Shown here: positions 43,833-60,160 of the stretch, in pieces | Layout: every line of letters begins with the position of its first letter | Numbering within the stretch: the first letter of the stretch is position 1 | From: Elusimicrobiota bacterium | Lineage (GTDB): Bacteria; Elusimicrobiota; Elusimicrobia; Elusimicrobiales; UBA9959 | Reading direction: 5' to 3' | DNA: 64,000 nt | Assembly (NCBI GenBank): GCA_009773155.1 | Contig: WOVA01000016.1 | Span: forward strand, 25,507 to 89,506 | Translations under genes and position numbers: made by a program | The notes under the pieces: model-generated | Database searches by the model: none | What the model was told of the DNA's origin: nothing | What the model saw: the letters and a program-made list of their open reading frames with translations, nothing else

Positions 43833-44425
43833 TGTTCGCCGGTCCCTTCCTGGCCTTCGTCCGCCTGCTGATGCGGCTGCTCTACCGGATCGAGGTGAGC
43901 GGCCTGGAGAAGGTCCCCGCCTCCGGCGCCGTAATACTGGCCTGCAACCACCTCTCCAATATCGACCCGCCCGCGCTGATGTCCTTCGTCAAGAAGGCCC
44001 GCCCCGACGCCTGCATAATAGCCAAGAAGGAGCTGTTCGCCGTGCCGGTGTTGGGTTCCGTCATACGGGCCCTGGGCGCCTTCCCGGTGGACAGGCGGCG
44101 CGAGGGCGGCGACCTGGGGGCGATGCGCGCGGCGCTGGGCGTGCTCAGGGCCGGCCGCCTGCTGGCCATCTTTCCCGAGGGGACCCGGGCGAAGGGAAAG
44201 AAACTGGAGCCCAAGGCCGGGGTGGCCATGCTGGCCCACCGCGCCGGCGCCCCCGTCCTGACCGCCCGGGTGTTCAACAGCGAAAACGCCGCCAAATTAG
44301 GTAAAATAAAGGTTAAGTTCGGCAGCCTGATGACTTTCGAGCCGTCCGGAGAGGACCCCAAAAAAGACTACCTGGAGTTTTCCAGGACCGTCATGGACGG
44401 CATATTCGCGATAACGGAGGACTGA
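43832..44425 (+). CDS. plsC: 1-acyl-sn-glycerol-3-phosphate acyltransferase
   Basis: NHLSNIDP (H..D box) and the FPEGTR box. Confidence 0.85.
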   Translation: MFAGPFLAFVRLLMRLLYRIEVSGLEKVPASGAVILACNHLSNIDPPALMSFVKKARPDACIIAKKELFAVPVLGSVIRALGAFPVDRRREGGDLGAMRAALGVLRAGRLLAIFPEGTRAKGKKLEPKAGVAMLAHRAGAPVLTARVFNSENAAKLGKIKVKFGSLMTFEPSGEDPKKDYLEFSRTVMDGIFAITED

Positions 44426-44432
44426 GATCGCC

Positions 44433-45620: not shown

Positions 45621-46485
45621 GGCCGCGCCCTCCGCGTCCCGGGCCCTCGTTTCCCGCAACCGGGTAACTTCGGCCCTCGCCGCGGCGCTCGCCGCGGCGG
45701 GTATCTACGCCGCATTCTCCGGCCACACCGCCGACGACGAAGCGTTTGAAAAACGTCTGGCCCGCGCCGAGGCCAGGATAGCCAGCGACCCTTCCGACAT
45801 AAAGGCCCTCTACGAATCCGGCCAGCTGAAGTTCCTCAAGGGGCCTTCCGCCTACGCGGCCGCCGCCGCGGACTTCGAGCGGGCGCGCGAAGGCGGTCTG
45901 TCCGAACCGAAACTTTTCTATTACCTGGGCGCCGTCTACCAGGGCCTGGGCCTCTACGATTTCGCCGGGGACGAGTACCGGCGCTACCTCAATAACAGCC
46001 CCGGCGACCTTGATACGCGCCTGTCGCTGGCCAAGATCGCCTATCTGAAGGGCGATTACGCCGCCGCGGAGTCCATGTACGCGGAGCTGGCCTCAGCCCG
46101 GCCCCGGGACCCTGTGGTGCTGGAGAACCAGGCCCTGGCCGCCTGGAAGAACGAGAGCGCCTGGGCCGAACCCCTGGCCGCGCTGCGCGCCCTGGGGGAG
46201 ACCCCCGCGGGCCGCGCCGATTTCGTAGAGGGCATCATAATCCACGGCTCGGGCGACCACGCCCGCGCCGCGGAGTTGCTGGCCCGCGCCGCCGCCTCGC
46301 CGGACGCCGGCGCCGACCTGCCCGATATCTGGCGCCGGCTTGCCGATTCCCGCCGCCGCCTCAAGGACGACGAGGGGACCATGGCCGCGCTGCGCTCGCT
46401 GCTGCTCCTCGAGCCCGGCGACCGCGAGGCTTCGGCGCTGCTCTCGCGCCTGGAGAAAGCCGCGGCCAGGAAGAAGAAAAAGTAA
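45607..46485 (+). CDS. TPR-repeat membrane-anchored protein
   Basis: N-terminal TM (ALAAALAAAGIYAAF) followed by TPR-like A..Y..G.Y..A repeats. Confidence 0.7.
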   Translation: MRTAEAAPSASRALVSRNRVTSALAAALAAAGIYAAFSGHTADDEAFEKRLARAEARIASDPSDIKALYESGQLKFLKGPSAYAAAAADFERAREGGLSEPKLFYYLGAVYQGLGLYDFAGDEYRRYLNNSPGDLDTRLSLAKIAYLKGDYAAAESMYAELASARPRDPVVLENQALAAWKNESAWAEPLAALRALGETPAGRADFVEGIIIHGSGDHARAAELLARAAASPDAGADLPDIWRRLADSRRRLKDDEGTMAALRSLLLLEPGDREASALLSRLEKAAARKKKK

Positions 46486-46502
46486 CCGTTCCCGGGGGAC
46501 CC

Positions 46503-49313
46503 CTGTCACACAGCCGCAAGCTATTTTATGCCCTGACGCTGGCGCTCCTCTGCCCGGCCGCGGCCCTGGCCGACAATAAGGTCATAATCAGGGACTTCGA
46601 CTGGAAGGTCTATTCCACCGACCATTTCGACGTCCATTATTACGCCGAGTCCGAGGGTTGGCACCGCTTCGCCGCCGCCGTGCTGGAGGACGCCTACCGG
46701 ACCACCGGGCTCTCGCTCAACCCCAAACTGGACAAGCGCATTCCCTTCTTCCTCTACGCCTCCATAAACGACATGCAGCAGTCCAATATCGCCGATACCG
46801 GCGACGGCGTGGGCGGCGTGACCGAGGCCTTCAAGGACCGCTTCATGGTCTGGTCGGACGGCTCGCGCGAATGGCTGGAGGACGTCATCCGCCACGAATT
46901 CGCCCACGAGGTGCAGTTCAGCCTGCTTATCGACGGTTTCTGGAAGTCCGCACGCATACTCAAGCTCTACATCTACCCGCTCTGGATGATGGAGGGCATC
47001 GCGGAGTACGCGACCGGCGACCGCGACCTGGCCGTGGAGGAGATGTATATACGCGACGCGGCCGCCGACGGGCGCCTGACCGAGCTGTGGAGGCTCAACC
47101 AGTTCTCCCACCTCAAGCCCCACCAGGTGACCTACGCCTACAAGCTCGGCGGCCAGGCGGTGCGTTTCCTCGCTGAGCAGTACGGCGAAGACCGCGTGGG
47201 CAGGATGCTGGAGCTCTATCGCACCCGCTACGACGCCTCGTCGGTGCTGCTGCCGCTGGTCGGGGCCGACATCTTCGGGTTCGACAGCAGGTTCCGCGAG
47301 CGCACCACCCAGAAGTTCCTGGCCCAGGCGGAGCGCGAGGGGTTGCGCGGGCCGGAGGCCTGGGCCCCGCCGCGCACCGCCAACAAATATCCGGGTATAC
47401 CGGAGTTCAACCTCAGCCCCGCCCGCGCGGCGGGGACGCTGGCCTGGCTCTCTACGGAAGAAGGCCATCCGCCCGTGGTGAAGGCGCTCCGGCCCGGCGA
47501 TAAAAAAGCGCGGGTCCTGCGCGGCCTCTCCGCCGGCGCGGAGAACATCCCCTACGGCCGCTTCACCAAGCCGCTGCGTTCGCTCTCGCTCTCTCCGGAC
47601 GGGCGCTGGGCCGTTTTTTCCGGCCAGCGCAACCACCGCGAGGGTATTTACGCCTGGGACCTGGAGACCGGCCGCTCGGCGCGCCTGGGCCCCGAAGGCC
47701 TGGAGGAAACCCGCCAGCCGCATTTTTCCCCCGACGGGAAGCGGCTGGTCTTCGTCGGCATGAAAGGCGGCTTCAACGACCTCTACGAGATGGATTTCCA
47801 CGGCCTGGAAAAAGTGCGGGCCGCGCGCCGGCTGACCGAAGACCGGGACGACGAGTCCTCGCCCACCTTCGCGCCGGACGGTGCGATATACTTCTCCTGC
47901 GAATTGCCGGTCTCGTCGGCGCCCGTCCGGGGTCTCTGCTCGCTGGCGCCGGGGGGAGAGAAGAAAGTCGAGCTGACGCTGGACGGCAGCGTCTACGATC
48001 CTGCGGTCTCGCCCGACGGCTCCAGGGTTATCTTCACCTGCGACAGGGAGAATATCTTCGACCTCTACGAGTACGAGCCGGCCTCGGGCGCGGTGACCCG
48101 GCTGACGCGCTCGCTGGGCGGCTCCTTCACCCCTTCCTACGGCGAAGGGGGGGAGATAGTCTTCGCGGCCTTCCGCGGCGGCGAGATGAACGTCCATTCC
48201 GGCCCCCGTGAAAATTTCCTCTCCGAGGTCGTAGTGCCGCCGGCAGACGGTACGGGGACACCATGCGCCATGGTGTCCCTTCCTGATGCCTTCGGCGTAT
48301 ACCGGCCCTACCGCTTCAGAGCCTCCACGGACCTGTTCTTCCCGGCCTTCCTGTTCTCCTCGCCCGGCGGGCTTTTCTGGATGAACTACTGGCAGGCCTC
48401 CGACATGCTGGGCGACCACAAGGCCGGGCTCTTCCTCACCTATAATTCCGGCGCTCCCTACCTCAGTTACCAGTTCGACTACACCTACGGCCCGCACAGG
48501 ACGCGGTTCTATTTCTCGGCTGCGGGCCTGTCCTCCGAAGGGAACAAGGACGCGCTGTCGCTGGAATACGACAAGCGCTGGTCGAGGCAGATAGCGGGCG
48601 CCTCGTATCCTTTCGACCGCTATAACGGCGCCCTGCTCTATCTGATACGCAAGAATGAGAAGACCGAATACACCGACGTAGACTATGCCTACAGGAACGA
48701 CGTGCGCGCGGCGCAGCTGGCTTACTTCCGCGACACCGCCAACGGCGTCTACCTGCTGGCCAACCGCGGCTCGCGCCTGCAGCTGAGCTGGATAAAAGCC
48801 GTCGAAAAGTTCGGCGGCAACAGGCGCTACGACGCCTATGTCGGCGAGCTGACCAAATTCTTCCCGCTGAGCAAGCAGGCCACGCTGGTCAACCGCCTTT
48901 TCGCGGCCGAGAGCTTCGGCCGGGACCGCGACGCTTTCGACTACGGCGGCCTGTCCGGCGTGCGCGGCTACGCCCGCCGCAACGGGGCCAACGAGGCCGG
49001 GCGGGTGCTGGTCAACAACCTGGAGTGGCGCTTCCCTCTCTTCGAGGACCTCAACTATTATATGTGGTATATGTTCCCCGATTTTTATTTCAAGACCATC
49101 TTCGCCAAGGTTTTCGTCGACTCGGCCGTCCCGCTTCAGCCCCAGGGGTCCTGGCGGTTCAGCGCGGACGACGCGATAACTTCCGTGGGTTTCGGCGTGA
49201 ACGTGCACACCTTCATCCTGCAGGCTTTCCCGCTGGTGCTGAGCCTGGATTACGCGCGCCGGCTGGACGACGGAGGGTACATAGTGTATTTCTACCTGGG
49301 CCCGCTTTTCTGA
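46503..49313 (+). CDS. Composite outer-membrane protein: HExxH peptidase-like module + PD40/TolB-like propeller repeats + Omp85/BamA-like C-terminal barrel (start uncertain, possibly CTG)
   Basis: VIRHEFAHEVQF (HExxH), PD40 repeats (SPDGRWAVFSG, FSPDGKRLVF, FAPDGAIYF, VSPDGSRVIF), and the barrel end ...IVYFYLGPLF. The signal-peptide-like SHSRKLFYALTLALLCPAAALA is encoded in-frame upstream of the first ATG (46680). The only in-frame candidate start there is CTG 46503. Confidence 0.8.
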   Translation: MSHSRKLFYALTLALLCPAAALADNKVIIRDFDWKVYSTDHFDVHYYAESEGWHRFAAAVLEDAYRTTGLSLNPKLDKRIPFFLYASINDMQQSNIADTGDGVGGVTEAFKDRFMVWSDGSREWLEDVIRHEFAHEVQFSLLIDGFWKSARILKLYIYPLWMMEGIAEYATGDRDLAVEEMYIRDAAADGRLTELWRLNQFSHLKPHQVTYAYKLGGQAVRFLAEQYGEDRVGRMLELYRTRYDASSVLLPLVGADIFGFDSRFRERTTQKFLAQAEREGLRGPEAWAPPRTANKYPGIPEFNLSPARAAGTLAWLSTEEGHPPVVKALRPGDKKARVLRGLSAGAENIPYGRFTKPLRSLSLSPDGRWAVFSGQRNHREGIYAWDLETGRSARLGPEGLEETRQPHFSPDGKRLVFVGMKGGFNDLYEMDFHGLEKVRAARRLTEDRDDESSPTFAPDGAIYFSCELPVSSAPVRGLCSLAPGGEKKVELTLDGSVYDPAVSPDGSRVIFTCDRENIFDLYEYEPASGAVTRLTRSLGGSFTPSYGEGGEIVFAAFRGGEMNVHSGPRENFLSEVVVPPADGTGTPCAMVSLPDAFGVYRPYRFRASTDLFFPAFLFSSPGGLFWMNYWQASDMLGDHKAGLFLTYNSGAPYLSYQFDYTYGPHRTRFYFSAAGLSSEGNKDALSLEYDKRWSRQIAGASYPFDRYNGALLYLIRKNEKTEYTDVDYAYRNDVRAAQLAYFRDTANGVYLLANRGSRLQLSWIKAVEKFGGNRRYDAYVGELTKFFPLSKQATLVNRLFAAESFGRDRDAFDYGGLSGVRGYARRNGANEAGRVLVNNLEWRFPLFEDLNYYMWYMFPDFYFKTIFAKVFVDSAVPLQPQGSWRFSADDAITSVGFGVNVHTFILQAFPLVLSLDYARRLDDGGYIVYFYLGPLF
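48255..48279. repeat. GGGACACC-family palindrome copy inside the Omp85-like CDS
   Basis: gggacaccatg-cgc-catggtgtccc. The extended 46-nt unit 48245..48290 encodes DGTGTPCAMVSLPDA between the propeller and barrel parts. Confidence 0.88.
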
Positions 49314-49340
49314 CCTATGTTTTATGATAAAATCCTAACT

Positions 49341-50420
49341 ATGAAACACATACTGACTTTTATTTCCCCACTGCTCCTGGCGGGCGCTCTCTTTGTCCCG
49401 GCCGCGGCCCAGACCGCGCCGGCAAAAAAAGCCGCCTCGCCGGCCCCCAAAGCCGCCGCGCCGGCCCCAAAAGCCGCCCCCGCGGCCAAGAAGGCGGCCG
49501 CCGCCGCGCCTAAAGCGGCGCCCGCGGTAGCGGCGTCCACCCCTACCCCGAAAACGCCTTTCGAGGAAGCCACGGACAACCTGAAAGCGGCCGACGCCGC
49601 CACCCGCCGCCAGGGCGCCGACGCGCTGGGCCGCCTGCGCGACGGCAAGGCCGAGCCGCTGCTCCTGAAAGCGCTCTCCGACGAGAGCGCGCCGGTCCGC
49701 GCGGCCGCGGCCGACTCTCTGGGCATGCTCAGGTCGCGCGGAGCCGTGCCGGTACTGGCGAAGATGCTGACGGACGACAAGGACCCTTCCGCCAGACAGG
49801 CGGCGGCCATCTCCCTTTCCTATATCGGCGATCCCGCGGCCGGCGACGCGCTGGTGAAAGCGCTCAAGGACGAGGCTCCCGGCGTGCGCTACGCCGCCGC
49901 GCGCACCCTCGGCGTCATCCGCTACGCCAAGGCGGAGGACGCGCTGATAGTTTTCCTCGACGGGAAGGACCTTAATATGCGCCGCGGCGCCGCCGCCACG
50001 CTGGGCCAGCTGCGCTCCGTCAAGGCGCTGGACGGCCTCTACGTCGCGGTCCGCGACGAAGACAGGTTCCTGCGGCTGGAGTCGGTCAAGGCCATAGGAG
50101 AGATAGGCGACAAGGCCGCCGTTCCCGCCCTGTCCAAGGCCCTCGCCGACAAAGACCAGAGCGTGAGCATAGAAGCCGCGCTCGCGCTGGCTAAACTGGG
50201 CAGCGACGAGGGGCTCAAGGCCGCCTACGAACTGATAAAGTCTCCCGAGATGCCCGTAAAGCAGCAGGCGGCTAATGTCATAGCCCTGATGGGCAATGAG
50301 AAGAGCGTTAAGGTCCTCGACGAGGTCTACGCCGCGGAGAAGGACGAGAATTCGAAGATGCTCATAGATTACGCCAGGCAGAGGCTCGCCGCCCGCCTGC
50401 GGCTGCAGAAACAGCAGTAG
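49341..50420 (+). CDS. Secreted HEAT-repeat (PBS-lyase-type) protein with Ala/Pro/Lys-rich N-terminal region
   Basis: Signal peptide MKHILTFISPLLLAGALFVPAAA, an AKKAA/APKAA low-complexity tract, then repeated ..VR..AA.ALG....A.P.L...L.D units. Confidence 0.8.
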   Translation: MKHILTFISPLLLAGALFVPAAAQTAPAKKAASPAPKAAAPAPKAAPAAKKAAAAAPKAAPAVAASTPTPKTPFEEATDNLKAADAATRRQGADALGRLRDGKAEPLLLKALSDESAPVRAAAADSLGMLRSRGAVPVLAKMLTDDKDPSARQAAAISLSYIGDPAAGDALVKALKDEAPGVRYAAARTLGVIRYAKAEDALIVFLDGKDLNMRRGAAATLGQLRSVKALDGLYVAVRDEDRFLRLESVKAIGEIGDKAAVPALSKALADKDQSVSIEAALALAKLGSDEGLKAAYELIKSPEMPVKQQAANVIALMGNEKSVKVLDEVYAAEKDENSKMLIDYARQRLAARLRLQKQQ

Positions 50421-50446
50421 GCCCGTCCGGGCCTCCCCACAGCGAT

Positions 50447-50815
50447 ATGGCAAAGAAGTCCCGCAAGCGCGCCAAGGCCGCCCAGGAGAAGGGCGCCGCC
50501 GCGCGCGGCGCGTATTTAACCGGCACGCCCTTAGACGGTACGGGGACGCCATGCGGCAGGGTGTCCCCCGCCGATGCCGGGGGGGAGATAAGCGGCGCGG
50601 GCTGGCTGATAGTGGCCGTTTCGGTCATCACCGCCGTCGTCGGCTACTTCCTGCTCTCCAAAGCCGCTCCCGAAGGCCGCGACCTCTACTCCAATCTCTC
50701 TCCTTTCGTGATCCTGGCCGGCTATATAGGCGTAGCCGTGGGAATAATGTGGCCGGGACGGCGGGGGGAGGGGGAGGAATACCCTGCTTCCGCCGGCGAA
50801 AAGTTCCCGGCCTGA
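50447..50815 (+). CDS. Small hypothetical membrane protein (two TM helices) containing a palindrome-derived segment
   Basis: Basic N-terminus, then two TMs (GWLIVAVSVITAVVGYFLL, FVILAGYIGVAVGIMW). Residues DGTGTPCGRVSPADA are encoded by the repeat. Confidence 0.5.
   Translation: MAKKSRKRAKAAQEKGAAARGAYLTGTPLDGTGTPCGRVSPADAGGEISGAGWLIVAVSVITAVVGYFLLSKAAPEGRDLYSNLSPFVILAGYIGVAVGIMWPGRRGEGEEYPASAGEKFPA
50542..50568. repeat. Degenerate GGGGAC-family palindrome copy inside the small membrane-protein ORF
   Basis: ggggacgccatgcggcagggtgtcccc. By hand alignment, the extended unit 50533..50578 matches 48245..48290 at 39 of 46 positions. Confidence 0.65.
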
Positions 50816-50917
50816 TTTCACCCCTTTTTTTGCTTCTTTTCCCCTCTTTTTCATTAAAATTGCCGTAGCCGGTCTTTTCCGGATACCCTGAAAAGCGCCT
50901 TCCGGCTTTGCTCACAT

Positions 50918-51328
50918 ACCATGAAACCCCCGTGCCCGGGTCCGCCGGGCTTTCCGGGGCCTTTCATGGTATTTTTTTTCTCCTCCTAAATTCCGCCGTC
51001 CCGCCCCTGCCCCTGGTCTGGCCGCCTGTATTGCCTCCAGGGCCTTTCATGGTGTTTTCGATCGCGGTCTTTTTCGCCTCCCCCCGGCCCTCCCTTTGCC
51101 TGTTCGGCTTTCATGGTATTTTTAAACTTCCGGTTTTTCAGGCTGCTTCCGGGCTCTTTCCAGGGTCCTGGGCGGGCAGCTCTTTCATGGTATTTTCAGC
51201 CTGGCGGGGGGAGAGGGCCTATTCGGGCGTATAGGCCCCCCGGCCTTTCCAGGGTTTCCGGAAAGTTGGCAAGTTTTTGGCTTCTTTGGATCCGCGGCCC
51301 ATGAAAGCCGGGGGAGGTCTTTCATGGT
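50918..51328. repeat. Iteron-like array: 7 copies of CTTTCATGG(T) plus 2 CTTTCCAGGGT variants at irregular spacing
   Basis: Forward copies at 50961, 51044, 51108, 51182 and 51319. Reverse copies at 50918 and 51299. Variants at 51156 and 51245. The flanks favour GGCCTTTCATGGTATTTT. Confidence 0.8.
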
Positions 51329-51583
51329 TTTTTTGAAGTCGCGATTTTGAGCCTCCTGGCCGGATCTCTTGGTTTCAAGTTTTCAAAAAGTTGGCAACTT
51401 TTTTGGAAATTCCGCGGCCGGTCACCAGTAACCAGCTGGCAGGGCATATATAAGGAGACTGCTATTAATAAAAAACTATATTTTGTATTAGGGTTTCTCA
51501 AAAAAGCATTATAAAACAATGCTTTTCGTAAAAACATTAAAACCAATTATAACTTCACCCCAACCCCGCAAAGGGGATGTTCT

Positions 51584-51611
51584 AGTTAACATAATATATC
51601 TTATCGTAAGT
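51584..51611 (-). other. dif-like XerC/XerD recombination site candidate
   Basis: The minus strand reads ACTTACGATAA-GATATA-TTATGTTAACT. By hand alignment from memory, the XerD arm matches E. coli dif at 10/11 (TTATGTTAAAT), and the whole site matches B. subtilis dif (ACTTCCTAGAATATATATTATGTAAACT) at 23/28. It is embedded in an AT-rich tract. Confidence 0.6.
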
Positions 51612-51927
51612 TGGGGATAGGGGACGCTGATTACTAAATGACTAACCGGTATGTGGATCCGGAGCCTTGCGGATCGGCCTGTTCCCGGCTGTTTTGTTGG
51701 CTGGATGCGTCGGAGCCGCCGGAGCCCTTTCGGTCAGGCCGGGCGCAGTGCTCCCGGCACCGACTGCGGGCATTGCCGCCCTGTTCCGGGCTCGCGGCGG
51801 CTTGGTGGTATTTGGTTGCTGGCTTTTCCCCGGATCTCCGGGGCTTCTGGCGGGCTGTTTTTGGGCTTTCCGGGGTTCTTCCGGGGTCGTTCTGGTTGGC
51901 CCCGGGCCTGCTCTTTTTGGCCGATTC

Positions 51928-52431
51928 TCAGCCCTCGCTGTCGGCTATTTTCTTGAGCTTCATGGCCGCGCCCCAGGCCTTCTCCATGCCTCGCTGGGTT
52001 ATGGCGTAGGTCCGGCCGCGCTTGCTGCCGCTGGCCGTTATCAGGCCTTCTTTGATGTACCGGGCTATCAGCCTGTCCAGCCTGTCCGGGGCATAGCCGG
52101 AGGCTTTTATGGCCCTGGACAGGGTTATGGCTCCGGTCTCCTGCCTGCCTTCCAGCAGCCTGTAGGCGGCCGACAGGGCCAGGAAAGCCTCTTCCGGGGC
52201 TATCTCCGGGCTCTTGTTGCGCAGCTGCAGCAGGCCTGCCTTGGTCACGGTTATGGCCTGCCAGAGCCCCGGCTCCTGGCCGGGCTCCGCGGGCCTGGAC
52301 GCTGTCGTCCGGCCGGGGCCGGAAATCTCTTCAATAAAACCGCGCTTCTCGTTTATTATGAAATCCAGCGGGCCCTCGGCCTCGAATTCGGCGCCGGAAG
52401 GGTGTTTAATCCTGAGCTTATAGTTTTCCAT
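51928..52431 (-). CDS. Hypothetical protein with C-terminal winged-helix-like DNA-binding region
   Basis: 167 aa. The C-terminal RLDRLIARYIKEGLITASGSKRGRTYAITQRGMEKA resembles MarR/PadR-type wHTH recognition-helix-plus-wing patterns. It is the only credible ORF in the 50.8-52.7 kb island. Confidence 0.6.
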   Translation of the reverse strand: MENYKLRIKHPSGAEFEAEGPLDFIINEKRGFIEEISGPGRTTASRPAEPGQEPGLWQAITVTKAGLLQLRNKSPEIAPEEAFLALSAAYRLLEGRQETGAITLSRAIKASGYAPDRLDRLIARYIKEGLITASGSKRGRTYAITQRGMEKAWGAAMKLKKIADSEG

Positions 52432-52479
52432 AGTATTTCCCTGCCAGTTCTTAGCTTCTTAACAGTCACCTATGTCATT

Positions 52480-52508
52480 ATTCTATCTTATGCGTTGTTA
52501 TATGTCAA
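52480..52508 (-). promoter_or_regulatory. Sigma-70-type promoter for the wHTH gene
   Basis: The minus strand reads TTGACA, a 17-nt spacer, then TAGAAT. A second TTGACATAT box and the inverted repeat CATATGGC-N12-GCCATAT lie just upstream (52509-52545). Confidence 0.55.
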
Positions 52509-52720
52509 TATATGGCAGACACATGACGGCCATATGTCAACAGGTTGTGGATAGCTTTGGGGATATCCCGGGTCACGGGGCGGTTCTCATTGGGAAAAAG
52601 TGGGTATCCGGGGGGCGTCGGAGGCGTCTCCGGGTGCCTGATATGCACAGGAATCGGGCTGTATTTTGGGCTCCCGGGGGCGGGAGGCCTGTGTGACCTG
52701 GGTTACAGGGGCCGGAAGGG

Positions 52721-54028
52721 CTAGAAACGGGCCTGTACGTAGGCTGAGATAAGCTTTGACTTGTCGTCGGTGGGGTAGAGGCCGCCGGGGGTGAAGACGG
52801 CGTAAACGCCCTTTAGAACGAGGTCCTTGTCTATCGGCCAGGCCACGGCCAGGTCCAGCTCGGTGCCCAGCTGCCGGTTGCCGCTGTTTATGTTCTTGGA
52901 GGCCCGGTACTTGAAATAGTCCACCGAGAGCACCAGCCGCTTATACGGCATATCGGCGCCGAGATTGATCACATTGAGACCCGAAACCCCCTCGGGCATG
53001 CCGTTGACCGTGCCGGAGGTCTTGATAGTGTCGTAGAGGCTGGCGCCCATTATGGCGCCGTAGCCGCCCCGCTCCAGGCCGCCGTCGCTTTTCGAGCCGA
53101 AGGAGGGGAAAAAAGCCTTGTCCTTCCCCCCCGCGGCGTGGGGATTGCCGCTGGACCGGCCATAGGCCAGGCGGAAGCGGGAGGAGCCGAAGAAGCCGAG
53201 CGGCTGGTTCCACGACCCCTTCATCATAAAGGCCGCGCCCTCGTACTCCACTTTGGTGCCGTCGGTCTTCTTGCCCGAGCCGCCCTGCATGACGAACTCG
53301 CCGTCGAACTCCAGCTGGCTGCGGCTCATGAAATAGCGTACGCCGGTATAACTGCGGTTCCTGGACGAGGCGGTATAATCCAGCGCCGTTACATTGGAGG
53401 CGGTATTCTCCCGGAAGTAGTAGAACTGCCAGACGCCTTCGTCGGAGGGATGGTACAGGCTGGCGCCAAAAACGGTGTAGGCCGCCGTGGACTTGTAGGG
53501 CCGGAAGGCGAAGAGGCCGGTCTTGAGGCCGAAGAGGCTGTCGGCTTCCAGCCGCGCGCCGGGGAAGCCCTGGTCGTTCGACGAGAGGGTAATGCCCTGG
53601 CCCAGCCTGAAGTCCTGCCGGCCCAGCGTGGCCGTCAGGCCGCGGCGGCCGAAATTGTAGATCTTCACATACGCGTTGCGGACGAAAGGCGAGCCGTTTA
53701 TACTGCTGTACCTGGCTGCGCCGTCCTGGAACTGCGGCGCGCCGATGGTGCTGGAGGCACCGCCGGTGCCCATGCTCTGGAATACTACGCCCAGGTCCAT
53801 GGTGGAGATGGGCCGGCGCGGCAGGGTTATGCCCTTGACCACGAAGCCCAGCGAGGTGTGCTCGGTATAGATGGTCTCGCTGTTGCGGGCGTTTATATAG
53901 AGGAGGTCCTCGTAGGACGAGGCCTTCACGCGTATGTCGGAGACTATGTCCAGCTTGACGGCATTGGCATTGCCGGAAAGGGCGAAAAGGGATGCCAGTG
54001 CCGAGGAGATAACGATATGCCGCTTCAT
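52721..54028 (-). CDS. Outer-membrane beta-barrel protein (alginate-export/porin-like)
   Basis: Signal peptide MKRHIVISSALASLFALSGNANA, an aromatic-rich alternating strand pattern, and a C-terminal ...YVQARF. Confidence 0.75.
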   Translation of the reverse strand: MKRHIVISSALASLFALSGNANAVKLDIVSDIRVKASSYEDLLYINARNSETIYTEHTSLGFVVKGITLPRRPISTMDLGVVFQSMGTGGASSTIGAPQFQDGAARYSSINGSPFVRNAYVKIYNFGRRGLTATLGRQDFRLGQGITLSSNDQGFPGARLEADSLFGLKTGLFAFRPYKSTAAYTVFGASLYHPSDEGVWQFYYFRENTASNVTALDYTASSRNRSYTGVRYFMSRSQLEFDGEFVMQGGSGKKTDGTKVEYEGAAFMMKGSWNQPLGFFGSSRFRLAYGRSSGNPHAAGGKDKAFFPSFGSKSDGGLERGGYGAIMGASLYDTIKTSGTVNGMPEGVSGLNVINLGADMPYKRLVLSVDYFKYRASKNINSGNRQLGTELDLAVAWPIDKDLVLKGVYAVFTPGGLYPTDDKSKLISAYVQARF

Positions 54029-54161
54029 CGGGATTTATTATAACAAAATAGCCGGGGAGTTTCCGGTGAAACTCCCCCCGCGCATAGCGCGGGCACTCCG
54101 TGCGGCATACATCCTCTCGTCCTGTCGCGCATAGCGCTCCGGACTCGACCCGCTGCGCGGG

Positions 54162-54193
54162 TAACTTTAAGTCCCGCAGGGGACTTAAAGTTA
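54162..54193. repeat. Perfect 14-bp-arm hairpin
   Basis: taactttaagtccc-gcag-gggacttaaagtta, preceded by a second small palindrome acccgc-tgc-gcgggt (54148-54162). Confidence 0.7.
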
Positions 54194-54195
54194 GG

Positions 54196-54232
54196 AATAA
54201 AAACCCCGGGGTTTTGAGGCCCCGGGGCTTTT
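54196..54232 (-). terminator. Probable terminator region downstream of porin gene 54254..55612
   Basis: The minus strand reads aaaagccccggggcctcaaaaccccggggtttttatt: GC palindromes followed by a T-run. Confidence 0.5.
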
Positions 54233-54253
54233 ACTCTTAGAACCTTGCGGTTA

Positions 54254-55612
54254 TCAGAACTTGACGTTGAACGCCGCGCCCAGCACGGAGGTCGCATCAT
54301 CTCTCGCGATGGTGGAGTTCCTCGTCGCGAAGTCATCATCGGGCATGAACGTGGCGTAGTACGCTTTCACGCCGACATCCTCGCTGTGCTGCCAGTTGGC
54401 GCACAGATTGAACTCGGAGCCGTAGGCATCATAGGCCTTCGCGGTGCCGAGGAGCTTCTTGGTAGGCGAGAAGCTGAAGAGCTTGGCCTTGAGGGTCAGC
54501 TTCTCCATCGCTTCGGGGTTCCATTTAGCGCCGATATTCCAGGTCTTCAGGTTGGCGATGCCTTCCCCGCCGACGGGGAGGTGGCCGCCGCCCCAGATGA
54601 TGCCGGGGCGATAGTCGCCGTTGATGCTCTGGAACGACTTGACCTCATTGTCGGTGGTGATGGTGTCGCCGGTGCCGCGGGCGAATTCGCCATTGAAAGC
54701 CAGCTTGCCTATGACGTCCATCTCATAGCCGGCGTTGAACTTCATCCCCCTGCCGGTAAAGTCGCCCTTGGTGGCGATGCCGGTCATAAGGCCCGCATCG
54801 GAGACGTTCTCGTTATAGGTGCCCACGTTTTTGGCGAGTTCAACCCCGTAGGTGAAGCCGTAGAACTTAGCGTTGACCTTGGCACCGATAACGCCGAGCG
54901 TGGTGTCGGGCCCGGCGGCAACGCCGGACTGCCTGTCCTGGCGGTAGTGGTAGCCGCCCAGCTTTATGTCGTCAGCCAGGTCATAGCCGGCGACGACGCC
55001 CCAGATATGCGTATCAGTGTCAGCCGCGGCCTGCCCTTGAGCGGCCCTAAACATCAGGGCGTGCAGGTTCAGCTTGTCGGCCTTATACCAGCCGGTCCAG
55101 CCGTCCGTGGCGGCAACGCTGAGCTGGTTGGTCTGCGCGATGTGGTCCACTTTGTAGGGCCAGCTCTGAGGGCCGTAATAGACGACCAGGTCGCCCTCAT
55201 TGCCGTAGTACTGGCGGCCGAGCTTGTGGTCCATGCCGAACACTCCCTTGAGGTTCATATAGGCCTGCTCAACCACGAGCTGACCAAGAATACCGGTCGA
55301 GCCCGCGGTCGGGGGGACCGGATTGGATTCTATATTGCCAATCCTTTCATTCCCGGCACCGTACTGGCGGTTATTTTTGACCAGGGACACGACTGCGTCC
55401 ACATCGTCATTGAGGTCGAAGCCCATGTTCACCTGAACGCGGACGTCCGTGTCGTTCCGCTTGTCATTGACGGTCTTGTTGAAGTCGGTGTTGCGCTTCT
55501 GCCAGCTATTGACCTCCACCTTACCGTCGTACTTGAAGTTCTTGAGCAGCTCGGCGCCGGCGATGTTGCCAGTAAGCGCGATCAGCGCAAGTATCGCTAT
55601 CAGTTTTTTCAT
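54254..55612 (-). CDS. Outer-membrane porin-like beta-barrel protein
   Basis: Signal peptide MKKLIAILALIALTGNIAGA, Gly/Tyr/Asp-rich strand pattern, and a C-terminal ...AAFNVKF. Confidence 0.8.
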   Translation of the reverse strand: MKKLIAILALIALTGNIAGAELLKNFKYDGKVEVNSWQKRNTDFNKTVNDKRNDTDVRVQVNMGFDLNDDVDAVVSLVKNNRQYGAGNERIGNIESNPVPPTAGSTGILGQLVVEQAYMNLKGVFGMDHKLGRQYYGNEGDLVVYYGPQSWPYKVDHIAQTNQLSVAATDGWTGWYKADKLNLHALMFRAAQGQAAADTDTHIWGVVAGYDLADDIKLGGYHYRQDRQSGVAAGPDTTLGVIGAKVNAKFYGFTYGVELAKNVGTYNENVSDAGLMTGIATKGDFTGRGMKFNAGYEMDVIGKLAFNGEFARGTGDTITTDNEVKSFQSINGDYRPGIIWGGGHLPVGGEGIANLKTWNIGAKWNPEAMEKLTLKAKLFSFSPTKKLLGTAKAYDAYGSEFNLCANWQHSEDVGVKAYYATFMPDDDFATRNSTIARDDATSVLGAAFNVKF

Positions 55613-55968
55613 TTACTCTCCTCCTGTCTTGTCGTAAGCCCCCGTTTCCGGGGCCTTCTCAATGCCTGTGCCCCTTTTGGGGGCCTACGGCCTTGTGAGT
55701 TCGGTCAGAAGCCTGCTTTCGGGCTGCAATCGCGGCTTTCGGCCTGCGGCTTCGTCGCTCGTCGCTTACATACCCTTGCGGTGTATGCTCGCTCCTCGCT
55801 TCTCGCCTCGGCTCGAAATCCACGATTTCGCTTCCGAGTGCGGCTTCCGACAGAACTCCTAGGAGAAGCGCCTTAAATCTGGCGCTCCGCTCCCCCCCAA
55901 TTACTCCCCGGGGCTGGCGGACCCTCCTGTACTGCGAGTGGAAGGCCTCCTTTACAGAGCATGGTAAT

Positions 55969-55995
55969 ACTATAAAAAACCCAAAACCCTGTCAA
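55969..55995 (-). promoter_or_regulatory. Possible sigma-70 promoter about 350 nt upstream of the porin start
   Basis: The minus strand reads TTGACA, a 15-nt spacer, then TATAGT. The spacer is short, so confidence is low. Confidence 0.3.
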
Positions 55996-56076
55996 GTATA
56001 TGTTCAGTACTTTCAGTACATATGACTTATATGTCCCATTATGCCAAAGAGTGGCGAGCCGCCCGGAGCCGGCGGC

Positions 56077-56108
56077 AATAAAAAAGCCCGGCCGGGGGCC
56101 GGGCTTTT
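56077..56108. terminator. Rho-independent terminator after the TPR/YfgM-like gene (bidirectional shape)
   Basis: aataaaaaa-gcccggcc-ggg-ggccgggc-tttt. Confidence 0.75.
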
Positions 56109-56127
56109 CGGAGGCGCGGGGGCCTTG

Positions 56128-56796
56128 TTACCTGGGCTGGGCGGGAGCGGCCTGGCCGGTCTTCTGCTTGGCGGCCTCGGACCAGGAGGTCTCGGGGTAG
56201 AGTATGGCGATCTTTTCGTAGGTGGACCTGGCTCCTTCCCTATCGCCCAGCTTTTCCTGCACCGCGGCCAGCGAGAAGTGGACTTCGGGCGCCAGCATGT
56301 GGTCGGAATATTTGGCCAGGAAGTCGCGGTAGTCGGCGGCGGCCTCGGCGGTTAGCGCCAGGGCCTCGCGGCTCTTGCCGGCGTTGTAGATGGCGAAGGG
56401 GCGCATGTAGGCGGGGCCGTTGACGAGCTTCTTGTACTCCTCCAGCGCCTCCTTGTACTTCTCCTGGCGGAAGAGGATGTCGCCCTTGCTCATCACGGCG
56501 TAAGGCGCGGCGTCGGAGCGGGCGAAGCCGGCGGCGACTTCGTCGAGCTTCTTTTCGGACTCGGCGTAGGCGCCGGAAAAGCCCGTCTGCTGCGCGATGA
56601 AGAGCTGCTTCCAGGCGGTGTCGTTGATCTGGCTGTAGTGCAGGTAGAACCAGGCGCCCAGTATCGCGGCGGCGATCAGCACCACCGAGCCCGCGACGAC
56701 GGCCTCGCGCTTTTCCTTTACGAAGGTCACGACCTGGTCGGTCCTGCTGACTCTTATCTGGGGCTCGCCGCTGGAGATCCAAGTGGATGAAGGCAT
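56128..56796 (-). CDS. Membrane-anchored TPR-like protein (YfgM/UPF0070-like)
   Basis: N-terminal TM (VVAGSVVLIAAAILGAWFYL) followed by TPR-like helices. Confidence 0.6.
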   Translation of the reverse strand: MPSSTWISSGEPQIRVSRTDQVVTFVKEKREAVVAGSVVLIAAAILGAWFYLHYSQINDTAWKQLFIAQQTGFSGAYAESEKKLDEVAAGFARSDAAPYAVMSKGDILFRQEKYKEALEEYKKLVNGPAYMRPFAIYNAGKSREALALTAEAAADYRDFLAKYSDHMLAPEVHFSLAAVQEKLGDREGARSTYEKIAILYPETSWSEAAKQKTGQAAPAQPR

Positions 56797-56822
56797 AATT
56801 CTCCGTTTTACCGGTTGAAAAC

Positions 56823-56897
56823 TGGTGCCCCCGAGAGGAATCGAACCTCTATTTGGAGTTTAGGAAACTCTCGTCCTATCCGTTGAACGACGGGGGC
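56823..56897 (-). tRNA. tRNA-Arg (anticodon CCT), CCA encoded
   Basis: Hand fold: GCCCCCG...AGAGT-TTCCTAA-ACTCC...AGAGG-TTCGATT-CCTCT-CGGGGGC-ACCA, with one A-C mismatch at the top of the anticodon stem. Confidence 0.88.
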
Positions 56898-56907
56898 GGC
56901 TAACGCG

Positions 56908-57444
56908 CTAATATTTTATCAAAGATTCGACGGGGTAGCCAGAGAGCTTGCCGCGGCCGTTGAGGAAGCCCAGTTCTATGAGCATGGCCACCGCCTCCAC
57001 TTTGCCGCCGAGCTTCTCCACCAGGCCGCAGACTCCCCTGGCCGTGCCGCCGGTGGCCAGCACGTCGTCGACGACTAGTATCCGCTCGCCCGGGTTTATC
57101 GCGTCCTCGTGGATCTGCAGCGTGTCCTGGCCGTATTCCAGGTCGTAGGTCACCGAGACGGTCTTATAGGGCAGCTTGCCCTTCTTGCGCACGGGCGTGA
57201 ACCCCGCGCCCAGCGCCAGCGCCACGGGCGCCGCGAAGATGAAGCCGCGGGCCTCCATGCCGATGACCTTGGTTATCCCTTTCCCTTTATACGGCTCGGC
57301 CAGCAGCTTGATGGCCCGGGCGAAGAGCGCCGGGTCGTTGAGCAGCGGGGTGATGTCCTTGAACATGATGCCGGGCTTGGGGAAGTCCGGCACGTCGCGG
57401 ATGGCGGCTTTTATCGACTCGATCGCTTCCGTCGTCGCGTTCAT
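56908..57444 (-). CDS. apt: Adenine phosphoribosyltransferase
   Basis: DFPKPGIMFKDITPLL and the PRPP motif ILVVDDVLATGGTA. Only the last 178 codons of ORF 56908..58029 belong to this gene. Confidence 0.95.
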   Translation of the reverse strand: MNATTEAIESIKAAIRDVPDFPKPGIMFKDITPLLNDPALFARAIKLLAEPYKGKGITKVIGMEARGFIFAAPVALALGAGFTPVRKKGKLPYKTVSVTYDLEYGQDTLQIHEDAINPGERILVVDDVLATGGTARGVCGLVEKLGGKVEAVAMLIELGFLNGRGKLSGYPVESLIKY

Positions 57445-58544: not shown

Positions 58545-58559
58545 GTTGCGTGGACCTCT

Positions 58560-58829
58560 TTACTTGATCTCGAAATTGTCGCCGCCCGTCCGCGTCTCCG
58601 GCACTTCGTGCTGGGCGAGCCCCGTGACCCTGGCCCAGTCGTGGCCGCCCTTTATCTCCGCCAGCAGCCGCTCCAGCTTGTCGGCGGGGCCCTGCGCCTC
58701 GCCCTCCACGTCGCCGCCGGGCAGATTGCGCACCCAGCCCGAGAGCTTCAATTCCAGCGCCGAGTCGCGCACGAACCACCGGAAGCCGACTCCCTGCACC
58801 CTGCCGCTGGCTTTGAAATATACGCGCAT
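58560..58829 (-). CDS. acyP: Acylphosphatase
   Basis: MRVYFKASGRVQGVGFRWFV...GWVRN signature. Start at 58829. Confidence 0.85.
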   Translation of the reverse strand: MRVYFKASGRVQGVGFRWFVRDSALELKLSGWVRNLPGGDVEGEAQGPADKLERLLAEIKGGHDWARVTGLAQHEVPETRTGGDNFEIK

Positions 58830-58982: not shown

Positions 58983-58996
58983 ATCGTGGAATTATT

Positions 58997-60145: not shown

Positions 60146-60160
60146 GGGCTAATTTATACA

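What the first reader, a model, noticed from the sequence alone, without database searches (positions are those of the whole stretch)
51584..51611. dif-like Xer recombination site at a point where gene orientation converges (candidate replication terminus)
The minus strand reads ACTTACGATAA GATATA TTATGTTAACT. By my hand alignment from memory, the right arm matches the E. coli XerD arm at 10/11, and the whole site matches B. subtilis dif at 23/28. It also fits the published degenerate dif consensus at 26/28. It lies in the only AT-rich, gene-free tract of the window. All genes from 38.1 to 50.8 kb are on the plus strand. Almost all genes from 51.9 to 64 kb are on the minus strand. That convergence is what is expected at a terminus.
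Basis: partly seen in the sequence, partly recalled or inferred. Interest (0 to 1): 0.65.

Follow-up and report, generated by a model that had tools for sequence, protein, structure and literature searches.

The report
Elusimicrobia chromosome dimer-resolution (dif) site
This 28-base sequence is almost certainly where the bacterium's Xer recombinases separate chromosomes joined as dimers, which is an ordinary device; the unusual part is that across this phylum it sits in a fixed setting beside a phylum-specific DNA-binding protein gene and a conserved non-coding repeat array of unknown role.

Summary
The reported 28-mer (minus strand 51611..51584, ACTTACGATAA-GATATA-TTATGTTAACT) is real and unique in the window. 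It matches published dif sites: 23/28 to B. subtilis and 10/11 to the E. coli XerD arm. The same 28-mer, or a variant differing only in the central 6 bp or the first base, occurs once per genome in about 35 Elusimicrobia species (27-64% GC). The sequence touching it varies between species. That is the signature of a chromosomal dif site. The window is core chromosome of an Elusimicrobia MAG (GCA_009773265.1).

The terminus claim is plausible but could not be tested. The GC-skew flip at 51 kb comes from codon usage plus convergent genes, and no complete genome was reachable.

Unexpectedly, the site is embedded in a conserved locus. A phylum-specific winged-helix gene (p167) always reads toward the XerC-type arm. 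Past the XerD-type arm lies a non-coding module at fixed offsets: an AT-rich block with TAGCA at +118, small palindromes, and 3-6 same-strand boxes (AAAAYACCATSAAR) spaced in multiples of about 10.4 bp. One genome keeps the module without dif.

Verdict: a new member of a known kind. The attached module is undescribed and its link to Xer function is unproven.

The parts
51584..51611 (-). dif-type Xer core site, ACTTACGATAA GATATA TTATGTTAACT
   Evidence: The identical 28-mer is present once per genome in 26 other Elusimicrobia loci from the pattern scan, plus L060 and L061.
51601..51611 (-). XerC-type arm, ACTTACGATAA. The assignment is by analogy with E. coli and B. subtilis dif.
   Evidence: 8/11 to the B. 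subtilis left arm and 10/11 to the E. minutum and S. usitatus predicted left arms. Binding was not tested.
51595..51600 (-). 6-bp central region, GATATA
   Evidence: This region was left as N6 in the search pattern, yet it is GATATA in 26 Elusimicrobia loci. Variants are TATATA, GAAATA, CATATA, TAAATA and TATACA.
51584..51594 (-). XerD-type arm, TTATGTTAACT
   Evidence: 10/11 to the E. coli and B. subtilis XerD arms.
51573..51578 (-). ATCCCC motif 6-11 nt past the XerD-type arm
   Evidence: ATCCC lies within 20 nt of the arm in 17 of 36 loci. Position counts show C enrichment at +8 to +11.
51501..51527 (.). AT-rich inverted repeat (AAAAGCATT-GTTTTAT-AATGCTTTT) with A-run and T-run flanks; terminator-like
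   Evidence: 72% of cells paired against 38-52% for slid controls. Covariation score 0.255 against 0.08-0.13. 0 of 500 shuffles reach it.
51459..51493 (-). Conserved AT-rich block, CTAATAC..TATAG..TTATTAATAGCAG
   Evidence: Nearly invariant columns in a 35-genome alignment. TAGCA sits 117-120 nt past the site in nearly all genomes. It is also present in L057, which lacks dif.
51385..51404 (.). Palindrome AAAAAGTTG-G-CAACTTTTTT
   Evidence: Conserved position in alignments A1 and A5. The two half-sites change together between genomes: GTTG/CAAC, TCAG/CTGA, TCTG/CAGA.
51261..51279 (.). Second, weaker copy of the palindrome (GAAAGTTGGCAAGTTTTTG)
   Evidence: family D5; alignment A4.
50961..51333 (-). 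Array of five same-strand boxes. On the minus strand they read AAAAYACCATGAAAG. The plus-strand copies (CTTTCATGGT) start at 50961, 51044, 51108, 51182 and 51319.
   Evidence: Positions are conserved across genomes at about +252, +391, +465, +529 and +612 from the site end. Spacings are phased at 10.4 bp (R=0.75 for all spacings, 0.62 for unique spacings; 0 of 5000 simulations reach this). The motif occurs nowhere else in the 64 kb window.
50916..50980 (+). Hairpin made of an inverted box plus box 5, followed by T8. Probably the intrinsic terminator of the convergent p122/HEAT/p877 operon.
   Evidence: I5: 16-nt arms, 88% complementary. Compensatory changes appear in the equivalent hairpin of other genomes.
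51805..51813 (-). Degenerate box (AAATACCAC) on the XerC-arm side, in the same orientation as the array
   Evidence: Many genomes carry a better box about 40 nt left of the site.
51928..52431 (-). p167: an Elusimicrobia-specific protein with an N-terminal KLRIKHPSGAEFEAEGP motif and a C-terminal winged helix. It is transcribed toward the XerC-type arm.
   Evidence: - No Pfam or NCBIfam hit.
- The family has 768 representatives, and every named one is Elusimicrobia.
- AlphaFold2 model pLDDT 79. The best Foldseek hits are generic winged-helix proteins (F-93, MarR, PadR, AspA) at E about 1e-2.
- It is adjacent to the site in 34 of 35 evaluable loci.
52480..52508 (-). Sigma-70-type promoter of p167 (TTGACA-17-TAGAAT, 11/12)
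   Evidence: This is a consensus match only.

Best explanation
The 28-mer is the chromosomal dif site of this Elusimicrobia bacterium.

**Mechanism (by analogy with E. coli and B. subtilis; established knowledge, not tested here).** Two tyrosine recombinases of the XerC/XerD type bind the two 11-bp arms. They exchange strands across the 6-bp centre between the two dif copies of a chromosome dimer late in the cell cycle, probably on activation by FtsK. This returns two monomers.

**What is shown.**
- The sequence match to published dif sites.
- One copy per genome.
- Conservation of the whole 28 bp across about 35 species, while the sequence touching it varies.

**What is inferred.**
- Xer binding and catalysis.
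- FtsK dependence.
- A position near the replication terminus.

**The surrounding locus.** In this phylum the site lies inside a conserved locus, in this order: p167 winged-helix gene, dif, AT-rich TAGCA block at +118, palindromes, helically phased box array. The most economical reading is that this module is a DNA-level protein-binding platform and terminator/insulator region. It shares the convergence point with dif and may or may not act on recombination.
For: - **Match to published sites:** exact sequence and identities, with published references.
- **One copy per genome:** the arms pattern gives one hit in each of 43 genomes, about 35 of them Elusimicrobia.
- **Whole-site conservation:** the free positions (outer AC and central GATATA) are also conserved, and the flanks are not.
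- **Control phyla:** the Firmicutes genomes hit by the same pattern show the usual positive-to-negative skew across the site. Two of them (L035, L041) have a tyrosine recombinase gene next to it.
- **Chromosomal context:** the window is core chromosome, with ligA, eno, holB, metG, ftsA, ftsZ, cmk, rpsA and an rpoD-like gene.
- **No second site:** there is no second dif-like site in the window.
- **Link to the published E. minutum site:** divergent p167 loci found through the protein alone carry ACTAACGATAATTTTTATTATGTTAACT (L055) and ACTAATGATAATTTTTATTATGTCAATA (L063). Both are 26/28 to the dif predicted for E. minutum Pei191, which lies 20.9 degrees from the antipode of the origin.
- **Xer genes in the phylum:** Kono et al. 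analysed only genomes that carry XerCD.
Against: - No xerC, xerD or ftsK in the window or within 8 kb of the site in any Elusimicrobia locus. This is not unexpected, but presence in this MAG was not checked.
- Terminus position is unverified. Local skew polarity is origin-like in sign, though it is explained by codon usage.
- Both flanks are syntenic across the phylum, which is unusual for the normally plastic dif region.
- One genome (L057) keeps the synteny and the module but has no dif core there. Three of eight evaluable p167 loci chosen through the protein alone lack a nearby site.
Confidence: 0.8

Rival explanations
1. It is a Xer site whose activity is governed by the flanking module, on the logic of plasmid cer and psi sites. 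p167, and perhaps other proteins, would bind the AT-rich block, the palindromes and the phased boxes. They would build a fixed nucleoprotein architecture beside the core that activates recombination or sets its direction, partly or wholly replacing FtsK control.
For: - Spacing is rigid to about 1 bp from the site to TAGCA (+117 to +120) and to the first box (+251 to +254) across genomes of 28-64% GC.
- The boxes are phased at 10.4 bp.
- The p167-then-dif order and orientation are conserved even where the far-side genes differ.
- The DNA-contact residues of the p167 winged helix are invariant.
- The segment has no RNA structure and no conserved ORF.
- The motif is unique to this locus in the window.
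Against: - L057 has the module without dif.
- The low-GC clade has p167 and dif but no boxes.
- The module lies on the XerD-type arm side, whereas cer and psi accessory sequences flank the XerC arm (established knowledge).
- There is no evidence that p167 binds any of these motifs. The Foldseek matches are generic.
Confidence: 0.2
2. The box array together with p167 is a replication fork barrier of the RTP-Ter or Tus-Ter kind. It lies beside dif and fixes where forks meet. dif itself works conventionally.
For: - The boxes are asymmetric, all in one orientation and clustered at the convergence point.
- p167 has the winged-helix-plus-long-C-terminal-helix layout that RTP also has (the RTP topology is from my knowledge).
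- The rtp and tus genes also lie next to their Ter sites (knowledge).
Against: - Boxes on both sides of dif have the same orientation, so there is no opposed pair of barriers.
- The boxes are missing in the low-GC clade, which still has p167.
- RTP and Tus are not among the top structural hits.
- The direction of replication is unknown.
Confidence: 0.1
3. The site is an attachment site or a remnant of a mobile element that exploits Xer (an IMEX or plasmid resolution site), not the host's own dif.
For: A tailed-phage contig (L054) carries a site with identical arms and a different centre. So elements that use this sequence may exist.
Against: - There is only one site in the window and none flanking an island.
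- The neighbours are housekeeping genes with genome-typical GC.
- The same locus and synteny occur in about 35 species.
Confidence: 0.03
4. It is not a recombination site. It would be an AT-rich palindromic operator or terminator, or part of an oriC-like element made of the AT-rich tract plus repeated boxes.
For: - An AT-rich block next to a phased repeat array resembles an origin layout.
- The skew changes from negative to positive.
- A single 8/9 DnaA-box-like CTATCCACA lies upstream of p167.
Against: - The match to dif covers both arms and the spacing, and is shared with Firmicutes dif sites.
- The genes converge here instead of diverging.
- The module has no DnaA-box cluster.
- The skew change is due to codon usage.
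- No dnaA, dnaN or gyrB lies in the 64 kb window.
Confidence: 0.03

Closest known systems
E. coli dif / XerC-XerD / FtsK chromosome dimer resolution
   Same: A 28-bp layout of 11 + 6 + 11, imperfectly inverted arms, a XerD-type arm 10/11 identical, and one copy per chromosome.
   Different: The XerC-type arm is only 5/11 identical. Terminus position, KOPS and FtsK dependence are untested. E. coli dif has no conserved neighbouring gene or fixed flanking module (knowledge).
B. subtilis dif (RipX/CodV) and the Firmicutes dif consensus
   Same: 23/28 to B. subtilis dif and 25/28 to the Firmicutes consensus. The same arms occur in Lapidilactobacillus and other Bacilli genomes.
   Different: A different phylum. 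The Firmicutes hits show normal positive-to-negative skew at the site, and the Elusimicrobia loci do not.
Predicted dif of Elusimicrobium minutum Pei191 (Kono et al. 2011, PMC3025954)
   Same: Same phylum, 22/28 identical. An intermediate form that is 26/28 to the E. minutum site lies downstream of p167 homologues in L055 and L063.
   Different: The central region is TTTTTA against GATATA, and there are two changes in the XerD-type arm. The neighbourhood of the Pei191 site could not be inspected.
Plasmid Xer sites cer and psi with accessory sequences (PepA, ArgR, ArcA)
   Same: A Xer core flanked on one side by a few hundred bp of conserved, spacing-constrained, protein-binding-like DNA.
   Different: This site is chromosomal. 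The module is on the XerD-type side and is longer, about 700 bp. No PepA, ArgR or ArcA sites were identified. One genome has the module without the core.
Single-recombinase systems with the gene next to dif (XerS/difSL, XerH/difH, XerL)
   Same: A conserved gene sits immediately beside the site.
   Different: The linked gene is a 167-aa winged-helix protein and not a tyrosine recombinase. The site has the classical 28-bp XerCD form.
RTP-Ter (B. subtilis) and Tus-Ter (E. coli) fork traps
   Same: A small DNA-binding protein gene lies next to clustered asymmetric repeats in the presumed terminus region.
   Different: All repeats share one orientation. There is no sequence or specific structural match to RTP or Tus.

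Membership tests
Chromosomal dif (XerC/XerD-type dimer resolution site) | 28 bp: two 11-bp arms in imperfect inverted repeat around a 6-bp centre | tested here: met
   The arms are 8/11 complementary with a 6-bp centre.
Chromosomal dif (XerC/XerD-type dimer resolution site) | Sequence similarity to experimentally defined dif sites, strongest in the XerD arm | tested here: met
   23/28 to B. subtilis and 10/11 to the E. coli XerD arm. The reference sequences were verified.
Chromosomal dif (XerC/XerD-type dimer resolution site) | Single copy per chromosome | tested here: inconclusive
   There is one site in the window and one hit per assembly in 43 genomes. Those assemblies are draft MAGs, and the rest of this MAG was not scanned.
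Chromosomal dif (XerC/XerD-type dimer resolution site) | Conserved as a site among related genomes, independent of the sequence touching it | tested here: met
   The 28-mer is identical in 26 species while the flanking 30 nt vary.
Chromosomal dif (XerC/XerD-type dimer resolution site) | Located opposite oriC, near the GC-skew shift point | not testable with these tools
   - The source is an 88.8 kb contig of a MAG.
- Local skew is driven by codon usage.
- No complete genome was reached.
- The only link is indirect, through the E. minutum-type site.
Chromosomal dif (XerC/XerD-type dimer resolution site) | XerC/XerD (or a single Xer) and FtsK encoded in the same genome | not tested
   None in the window or in the 8-kb loci. 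The evidence is at phylum level only, from Kono et al..
Chromosomal dif (XerC/XerD-type dimer resolution site) | Flanked by polar KOPS-like motifs that invert at the site | tested here: inconclusive
   The known motifs are too rare. Every polar 7-mer tracks the coding strand.
Chromosomal dif (XerC/XerD-type dimer resolution site) | Xer binding, cleavage and dimer resolution | not testable with these tools
   This needs biochemistry or genetics.
cer/psi-type Xer site with accessory sequences | About 180 bp of accessory DNA next to the XerC-binding arm, bound by PepA with ArgR or ArcA | tested here: not met
   The conserved module lies on the XerD-type arm side and extends about 700 bp. No known accessory-protein boxes were recognised.
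cer/psi-type Xer site with accessory sequences | Carried on a plasmid or other multicopy replicon | tested here: not met
   The context is housekeeping chromosome.
IMEX attachment or integrated element at dif | Element bounded by two dif-like sites, with foreign composition or genes | tested here: not met
   There is no second site. The neighbours are syntenic core genes.
RTP/Tus-type replication fork trap | Polar Ter sites in two opposed groups flanking the terminus | tested here: not met
   All boxes are on one strand, on both sides of dif.
RTP/Tus-type replication fork trap | Terminator protein homologous to RTP or Tus | tested here: not met
   There is no sequence match to any PDB chain at E<0.1. 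The Foldseek top 50 are generic winged-helix proteins.
Bacterial oriC | Cluster of DnaA boxes beside an AT-rich unwinding element, with genes usually diverging | tested here: not met
   There is no DnaA-box cluster in the module, and the genes converge.

The most novel reading that the evidence does not exclude
In Elusimicrobia, dif is not a bare 28-bp site. It would be the core of a dedicated nucleoprotein locus. The phylum-specific winged-helix protein p167 and the fixed-offset module (AT-rich TAGCA block, co-varying palindromes, helically phased AAAAYACCAT boxes) would assemble beside the XerD-type arm. That assembly would control Xer recombination as a chromosomal counterpart of cer and psi accessory control, or it would act as a one-sided fork barrier or terminus organiser.
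Probability: 0.25. Interest if true: 0.75.

Novelty: new member of a known kind. Interest (0 to 1): 0.4.

Why it matters
**The dif call itself is routine but useful.**
- It gives a probable terminus marker for draft Elusimicrobia genomes, which helps scaffold ordering and coverage-based growth estimates.
- It extends the one published prediction for the phylum (E. minutum) to about 35 species that share an essentially invariant site.

**The surrounding module is the more interesting result.** Chromosomal dif sites are thought to need no flanking sequence and to have no dedicated neighbouring gene. Here an orphan DNA-binding protein gene and a spacing-constrained repeat array travel with dif across a phylum. 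If the link is functional, it would be a new way of controlling Xer recombination or replication termination in a deep-branching, poorly studied lineage. It can be tested with a few purified proteins and plasmid assays.

Tried and rejected
1. **GC skew as terminus evidence.** The flip at 51 kb is caused by codon usage. Pooled skew across 35 loci shows the same coding-strand effect.
2. **KOPS or polar oligomers.** Not separable from gene orientation.
3. **Anchoring on a complete genome.**
   - Protein searches with the L038 homologues of p167 and p877 did not return E. minutum Pei191. The largest contig was 551 kb.
   - A metagenome scan for the Pei191 arms gave 0 hits.
4. **Structured RNA in the module.**
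   - No Rfam match, even at E<=1.
   - RNAalifold gives 0 pairs on either strand of the rigid 134-bp segment.
   - Only the AT hairpin covaries.
   - The GC hairpin after TAGCAG has no consistent terminator polarity.
5. **Small proteins in the array.** No frame is conserved, and the ORFs placed there by gene callers are unrelated to each other. The ATG inside the box is only 56% conserved. Real gene starts use Shine-Dalgarno contexts.
6. **Intrinsically curved DNA.** A/T tracts show no 10.5-bp periodicity.
7. **Outer inverted repeat around the core.** Complementarity is at chance level.
9. **Recombinase next to the site.** Found only in the Firmicutes control loci.
10. **Sigma-54 promoter reading of TTGGCAA-N-TTGG.** Rejected, because the -12 element is not conserved in other genomes.
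11. **p167 autoregulation through module motifs.** The p167 promoter region contains none of them.

Full report
**1. The observation**

The minus strand at 51611..51584 reads ACTTACGATAA GATATA TTATGTTAACT, as reported.
- 23/28 to B. subtilis dif
- 10/11 to the E. coli XerD arm
- 19/28 to E. coli dif overall
- 25/28 to a Firmicutes consensus
- 26/28 to the degenerate consensus

The E. coli and B. subtilis sequences match those printed in Kono et al. 2011 (PMC3025954). The degenerate consensus string was not found in the paper library, so it rests on memory. The two arms form an 8/11 imperfect inverted repeat.

The site is well beyond chance. No shuffle of the window gives a match within 3 mismatches. 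The next best consensus match scores 22/28 and has a poor XerD arm.

Gene calls confirm convergent transcription. All genes from 38102 to 50815 are on the + strand. All from 51928 to 62874 are on the - strand except one 67-aa gene. One sub-claim is wrong: other AT-rich tracts exist at 24041-24390 and 61231-61430.

**2. Source and context**

The window corresponds to contig WPII01000013.1 (88.8 kb) of the Elusimicrobia MAG GCA_009773265.1, apart from small indels. It is ordinary core chromosome at about 65% GC. It carries ligA, nusB, purH, eno, holB, metG, ftsA, ftsZ, cmk, rpsA, an rpoD-like sigma factor and five tRNAs. No tyrosine recombinase or ftsK gene lies in the window.

**3. Why it is a dif site**

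I scanned one genome per prokaryotic species for the arms only (TTACGATAA-N6-TTATGTTAACT). This found 43 genomes with exactly one hit each, about 35 of them Elusimicrobia.
- In 26 of those, the eight positions left free by the pattern (outer AC, central GATATA) are also identical to the window.
- The other Elusimicrobia loci differ only in the central 6 bp or the first base.
- Their GC content ranges from 27% to 64% (L060).
- The 30 nt touching the site on either side are not conserved.

This combination is the expected signature of a chromosomal Xer target.

The few non-Elusimicrobia hits serve as positive controls. They are Bacilli, Lachnospiraceae and similar genomes. They show the usual positive-to-negative skew across the site, and two (L035, L041) have a tyrosine recombinase gene beside it.

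Kono et al. predicted a dif for the one Elusimicrobia genome then available, E. minutum Pei191. It reads ACTAACGATAATTTTTATTATGTCAATT and lies at 917,173 of 1.64 Mb. That is 20.9 degrees from the antipode of the origin and 18.9 degrees from the skew shift point. Their data set contained only genomes that carry XerCD. The window site is 22/28 identical to it.

**4. An unexpected fixed neighbourhood**

tblastn of the window's proteins against the dif-oriented loci shows the same gene order in about 34 species. On the XerC-arm side, a porin-like p452, an AlgE-like p435 and p167 all read toward the site. On the other side there is about 800 bp of non-coding DNA. Beyond it, p122, a HEAT-repeat protein and a peptidase_MA/PD40 protein read back toward the site.

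p167 (51928-52431, minus strand) ends 48-308 bp before the XerC-type arm in 32 loci, with amino-acid identity falling to 34%. What is known about p167:
- It has no Pfam, NCBIfam or PDB sequence match.
- Its family has 768 representatives at 50% clustering, and every named one is Elusimicrobia.
- The alignment shows an invariant N-terminal motif (KLRIKHPSGAEFEAEGP), a variable linker, and a C-terminal domain with invariant SGY..R.DR and G.KR.R.Y.
- AlphaFold2 models the C-terminal domain as a winged helix with a long terminal helix (pLDDT 79).
- Foldseek returns only generic winged-helix proteins at E about 1e-2: F-93, MarR, PadR, AspA and the Cdc6 winged-helix domain.
- It has its own near-consensus sigma-70 promoter.

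To remove ascertainment bias, I looked up nine p167 family members found by protein search alone. Of eight loci evaluable downstream, five have a dif-type site within 1.3 kb of the p167 stop codon, always in the same orientation (L055, L059, L060, L061, L063). In L055, L059 and L060 the far-side genes are completely different. Three loci lack a site (L057, L058, L062).

The L055 and L063 sites are each 26/28 identical to the Pei191 prediction. This links the p167 locus type to a site with a known terminus-region position. The link is indirect.

**5. The non-coding module**

Reading the minus strand away from the XerD-type arm, alignments of 26-35 genomes show these elements in order:
- **ATCCCC** at +6.
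- **An AT-rich inverted repeat** at +57 to +83 that covaries. It is 72% paired against 38-52% for slid controls, and 0 of 500 shuffles reach its covariation score.
- **A nearly invariant block**, CTAAYAC-N4-TTTATAG-N7-TTATTANTAGCAG. TAGCA falls at +117 to +120 in nearly all genomes.
- **A variable GC hairpin.**
- **Small palindromes.** The forms are AAAAGTTG-N-CAACTTTT, AATCAG-C-CTGATT and ATCTG-C-CAGAT. Their two half-sites change together between genomes.
- **Three to six copies of a 17-nt box**, AAAAYACCATSAARRGC, all on the same strand. The first is at +251 to +254 in about 20 genomes.

Box spacings cluster at 52, 63, 73, 84, 136, 147, 190, 208, 219, 230, 272 and 315 bp. These are close to whole multiples of about 10.4 bp (R=0.75 for all spacings, 0.62 for unique spacings, and 0 of 5000 simulations reach this).

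A further box lies about 40 nt to the left of the site in many genomes, in the same orientation. In the 64 kb window the box occurs only in this intergenic region: 5 hits against 1.7 expected. The last box pairs with an inverted copy and a T-run. Together they form the likely terminator of the convergent operon.

**6. What the module is not**

- **Not a known or structured RNA.** There is no Rfam match even at E<=1. RNAalifold finds no consensus structure on either strand of the rigid TAGCA-to-box-1 segment.
- **Not protein-coding.** No reading frame is conserved, and the small ORFs placed there by gene callers are unrelated to each other. The ATG inside the box is only 56% conserved.
- **Not intrinsically curved by phased A-tracts**.

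Helical phasing and rigid offsets, with sequence-variable spacers, point to a DNA-level protein-binding architecture (inference).

Two observations argue against the module being an obligatory part of dif:
- L057 keeps the synteny, the AT-rich block, the palindromes and the boxes, but it has no dif core.
- The low-GC clade has p167, dif and the AT-rich block, but no boxes.

The elements that always travel with p167 are the AT-rich TAGCA block and, in most lineages, dif.

**7. The terminus question**

GC skew changes sign at about 51 kb from negative to positive. That is the opposite of the usual terminus polarity. At fourfold-degenerate sites the coding strand is C-rich by the same amount for + and - genes left of the site (-0.191 and -0.198). 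The replication component is therefore about 0.00 +/- 0.01, and the flip simply mirrors gene orientation.

Known KOPS or SRS motifs are too rare to test. Every polar 7-mer reverses inside oppositely oriented genes.

So the window neither supports nor contradicts a terminus. The convergent gene arrangement and the indirect link to the E. minutum prediction make a terminus-proximal position likely (inference, about 0.65).

**8. Mechanism proposed**

By analogy with the E. coli and B. subtilis systems (established knowledge), XerC- and XerD-type recombinases bind the two arms. They exchange strands across GATATA between the two dif copies of a chromosome dimer, probably on activation by FtsK at the closing septum.

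The flanking module most likely binds p167 and possibly other proteins on one face of the helix, and it terminates the two convergent transcription units. Whether it also controls recombination (cer/psi-like logic) or fork progression (RTP/Tus-like logic) remains open. These rivals get 0.2 and 0.1. A mobile-element origin and a non-recombination reading each get about 0.03.

**9. Comparison and novelty**

The core site meets every sequence-level criterion for a classical XerCD-type dif. It is a new member of a known kind, and one species of the phylum already has a published prediction.

It is not a cer/psi-type site, because it is chromosomal and the module is on the other arm. It is not an IMEX junction, because there is no second site. 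It is not a Ter trap, because the boxes share one orientation.

I found no description of a conserved dif-linked winged-helix gene or flanking array in the literature searched.

**10. Limits**

- All comparison genomes are draft MAGs.
- The loci are related, so motif counts are not independent.
- The arm assignment is by analogy.
- No binding or recombination data exist.
- Presence of Xer and FtsK genes in this MAG was not checked.

Noticed in passing
L054 12977-13002 (IMGVR_UViG_3300029892_000077, 16.7 kb, GC 0.57): A tailed-phage contig (SU10-type portal, RusA) carries ACTTACGATAACACACATTATGTTAACT in an intergenic gap. Both arms are identical to the Elusimicrobia dif and the centre differs. 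None of the chromosomal neighbours are present. It may be a Xer-exploiting temperate phage of this phylum.
   Followed up: partly
L057 4287-4900 (GCA_016209085.1, JACQWV010000065.1): This genome keeps the AlgE-like, p167, HEAT and p877 synteny, and also the AT-rich TAGCAG block, the palindromes and four boxes. It has no dif core. The block starts right after the p167 stop codon. The location of dif in this genome is unknown.
   Followed up: partly
window, all genes (e.g. 11418-12704 eno, 44433-45620 rpsA): Coding strands are C-rich at fourfold-degenerate sites. The skew is about -0.2 overall and reaches -0.48 in eno and -0.52 in a TPR gene. Local GC skew therefore tracks transcription direction with the sign opposite to most bacteria, and it would mislead skew-based origin and terminus calls on contigs of this lineage.
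   Followed up: yes
window 29535-36049: Two very large + strand genes (1243 aa with no Pfam hit; 883 aa with HisKA/HATPase) have a strongly positive AT skew (+0.25 to +0.35) and a positive GC skew, unlike the rest of the window. They are followed by a response regulator.
   Followed up: no
window vs GCA_009773265.1 WPII01000013.1: The window is not identical to the deposited contig. Coordinate offsets differ by 11-15 bp between regions, and one called gene (L051 4633-5865, about window 28.0-29.3 kb) has no exact copy in the window. The window may come from another assembly of the same population; a 96,974-bp contig carries the identical p167.
   Followed up: partly
window 38923-41303: ftsA and ftsZ lie only about 10 kb from the dif site, on the strand that reads toward it. 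The cmk-rpsA pair lies about 6-8 kb away.
   Followed up: no
window 52510-52545 (minus strand), upstream of p167: The p167 promoter region contains two TTGACATAT repeats within an inverted ATATGGC/GCCATAT arrangement. A single 8/9 DnaA-box-like CTATCCACA lies at 52546-52554. This may be an operator. None of the module motifs occur here.
   Followed up: no
L009, L022, L035, L041, L043 (Muribaculaceae-labelled MAG, Lapidilactobacillus, Bacilli MAGs): Genomes from other phyla carry dif sites with exactly the same 9+11 arm bases as Elusimicrobia, for example ACTTACGATAATATATATTATGTTAACT. This shows how little the Firmicutes-type dif has diverged across phyla. L035 and L041 have a tyrosine recombinase gene next to the site.
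   Followed up: partly
L055 4961-7654 (GCA_944324115.1): A 319-aa p167 homologue is followed by about 2.7 kb with almost no called genes. This stretch holds the E. minutum-type dif at 5710 and a short tandem repeat (TTTAGCC)n at about 5161-5200.
   Followed up: no
L064 1841-1868: In one divergent p167 locus, a dif-like TGTTGTGATAATTTTACTTATGTTAACT (perfect XerD-type arm) lies 1.1 kb upstream of the p167 start on the opposite strand, instead of downstream. The contig ends 150 bp after the gene, so the downstream side could not be checked.
   Followed up: no
window 24041-24390 and 61231-61430: Two other strongly AT-rich intergenic tracts (minimum GC 0.25 and 0.29) occur in a 65% GC genome. The first follows a sigma-54 activator gene. 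The second contains the 22/28 weak consensus match at 61287-61314.
   Followed up: no
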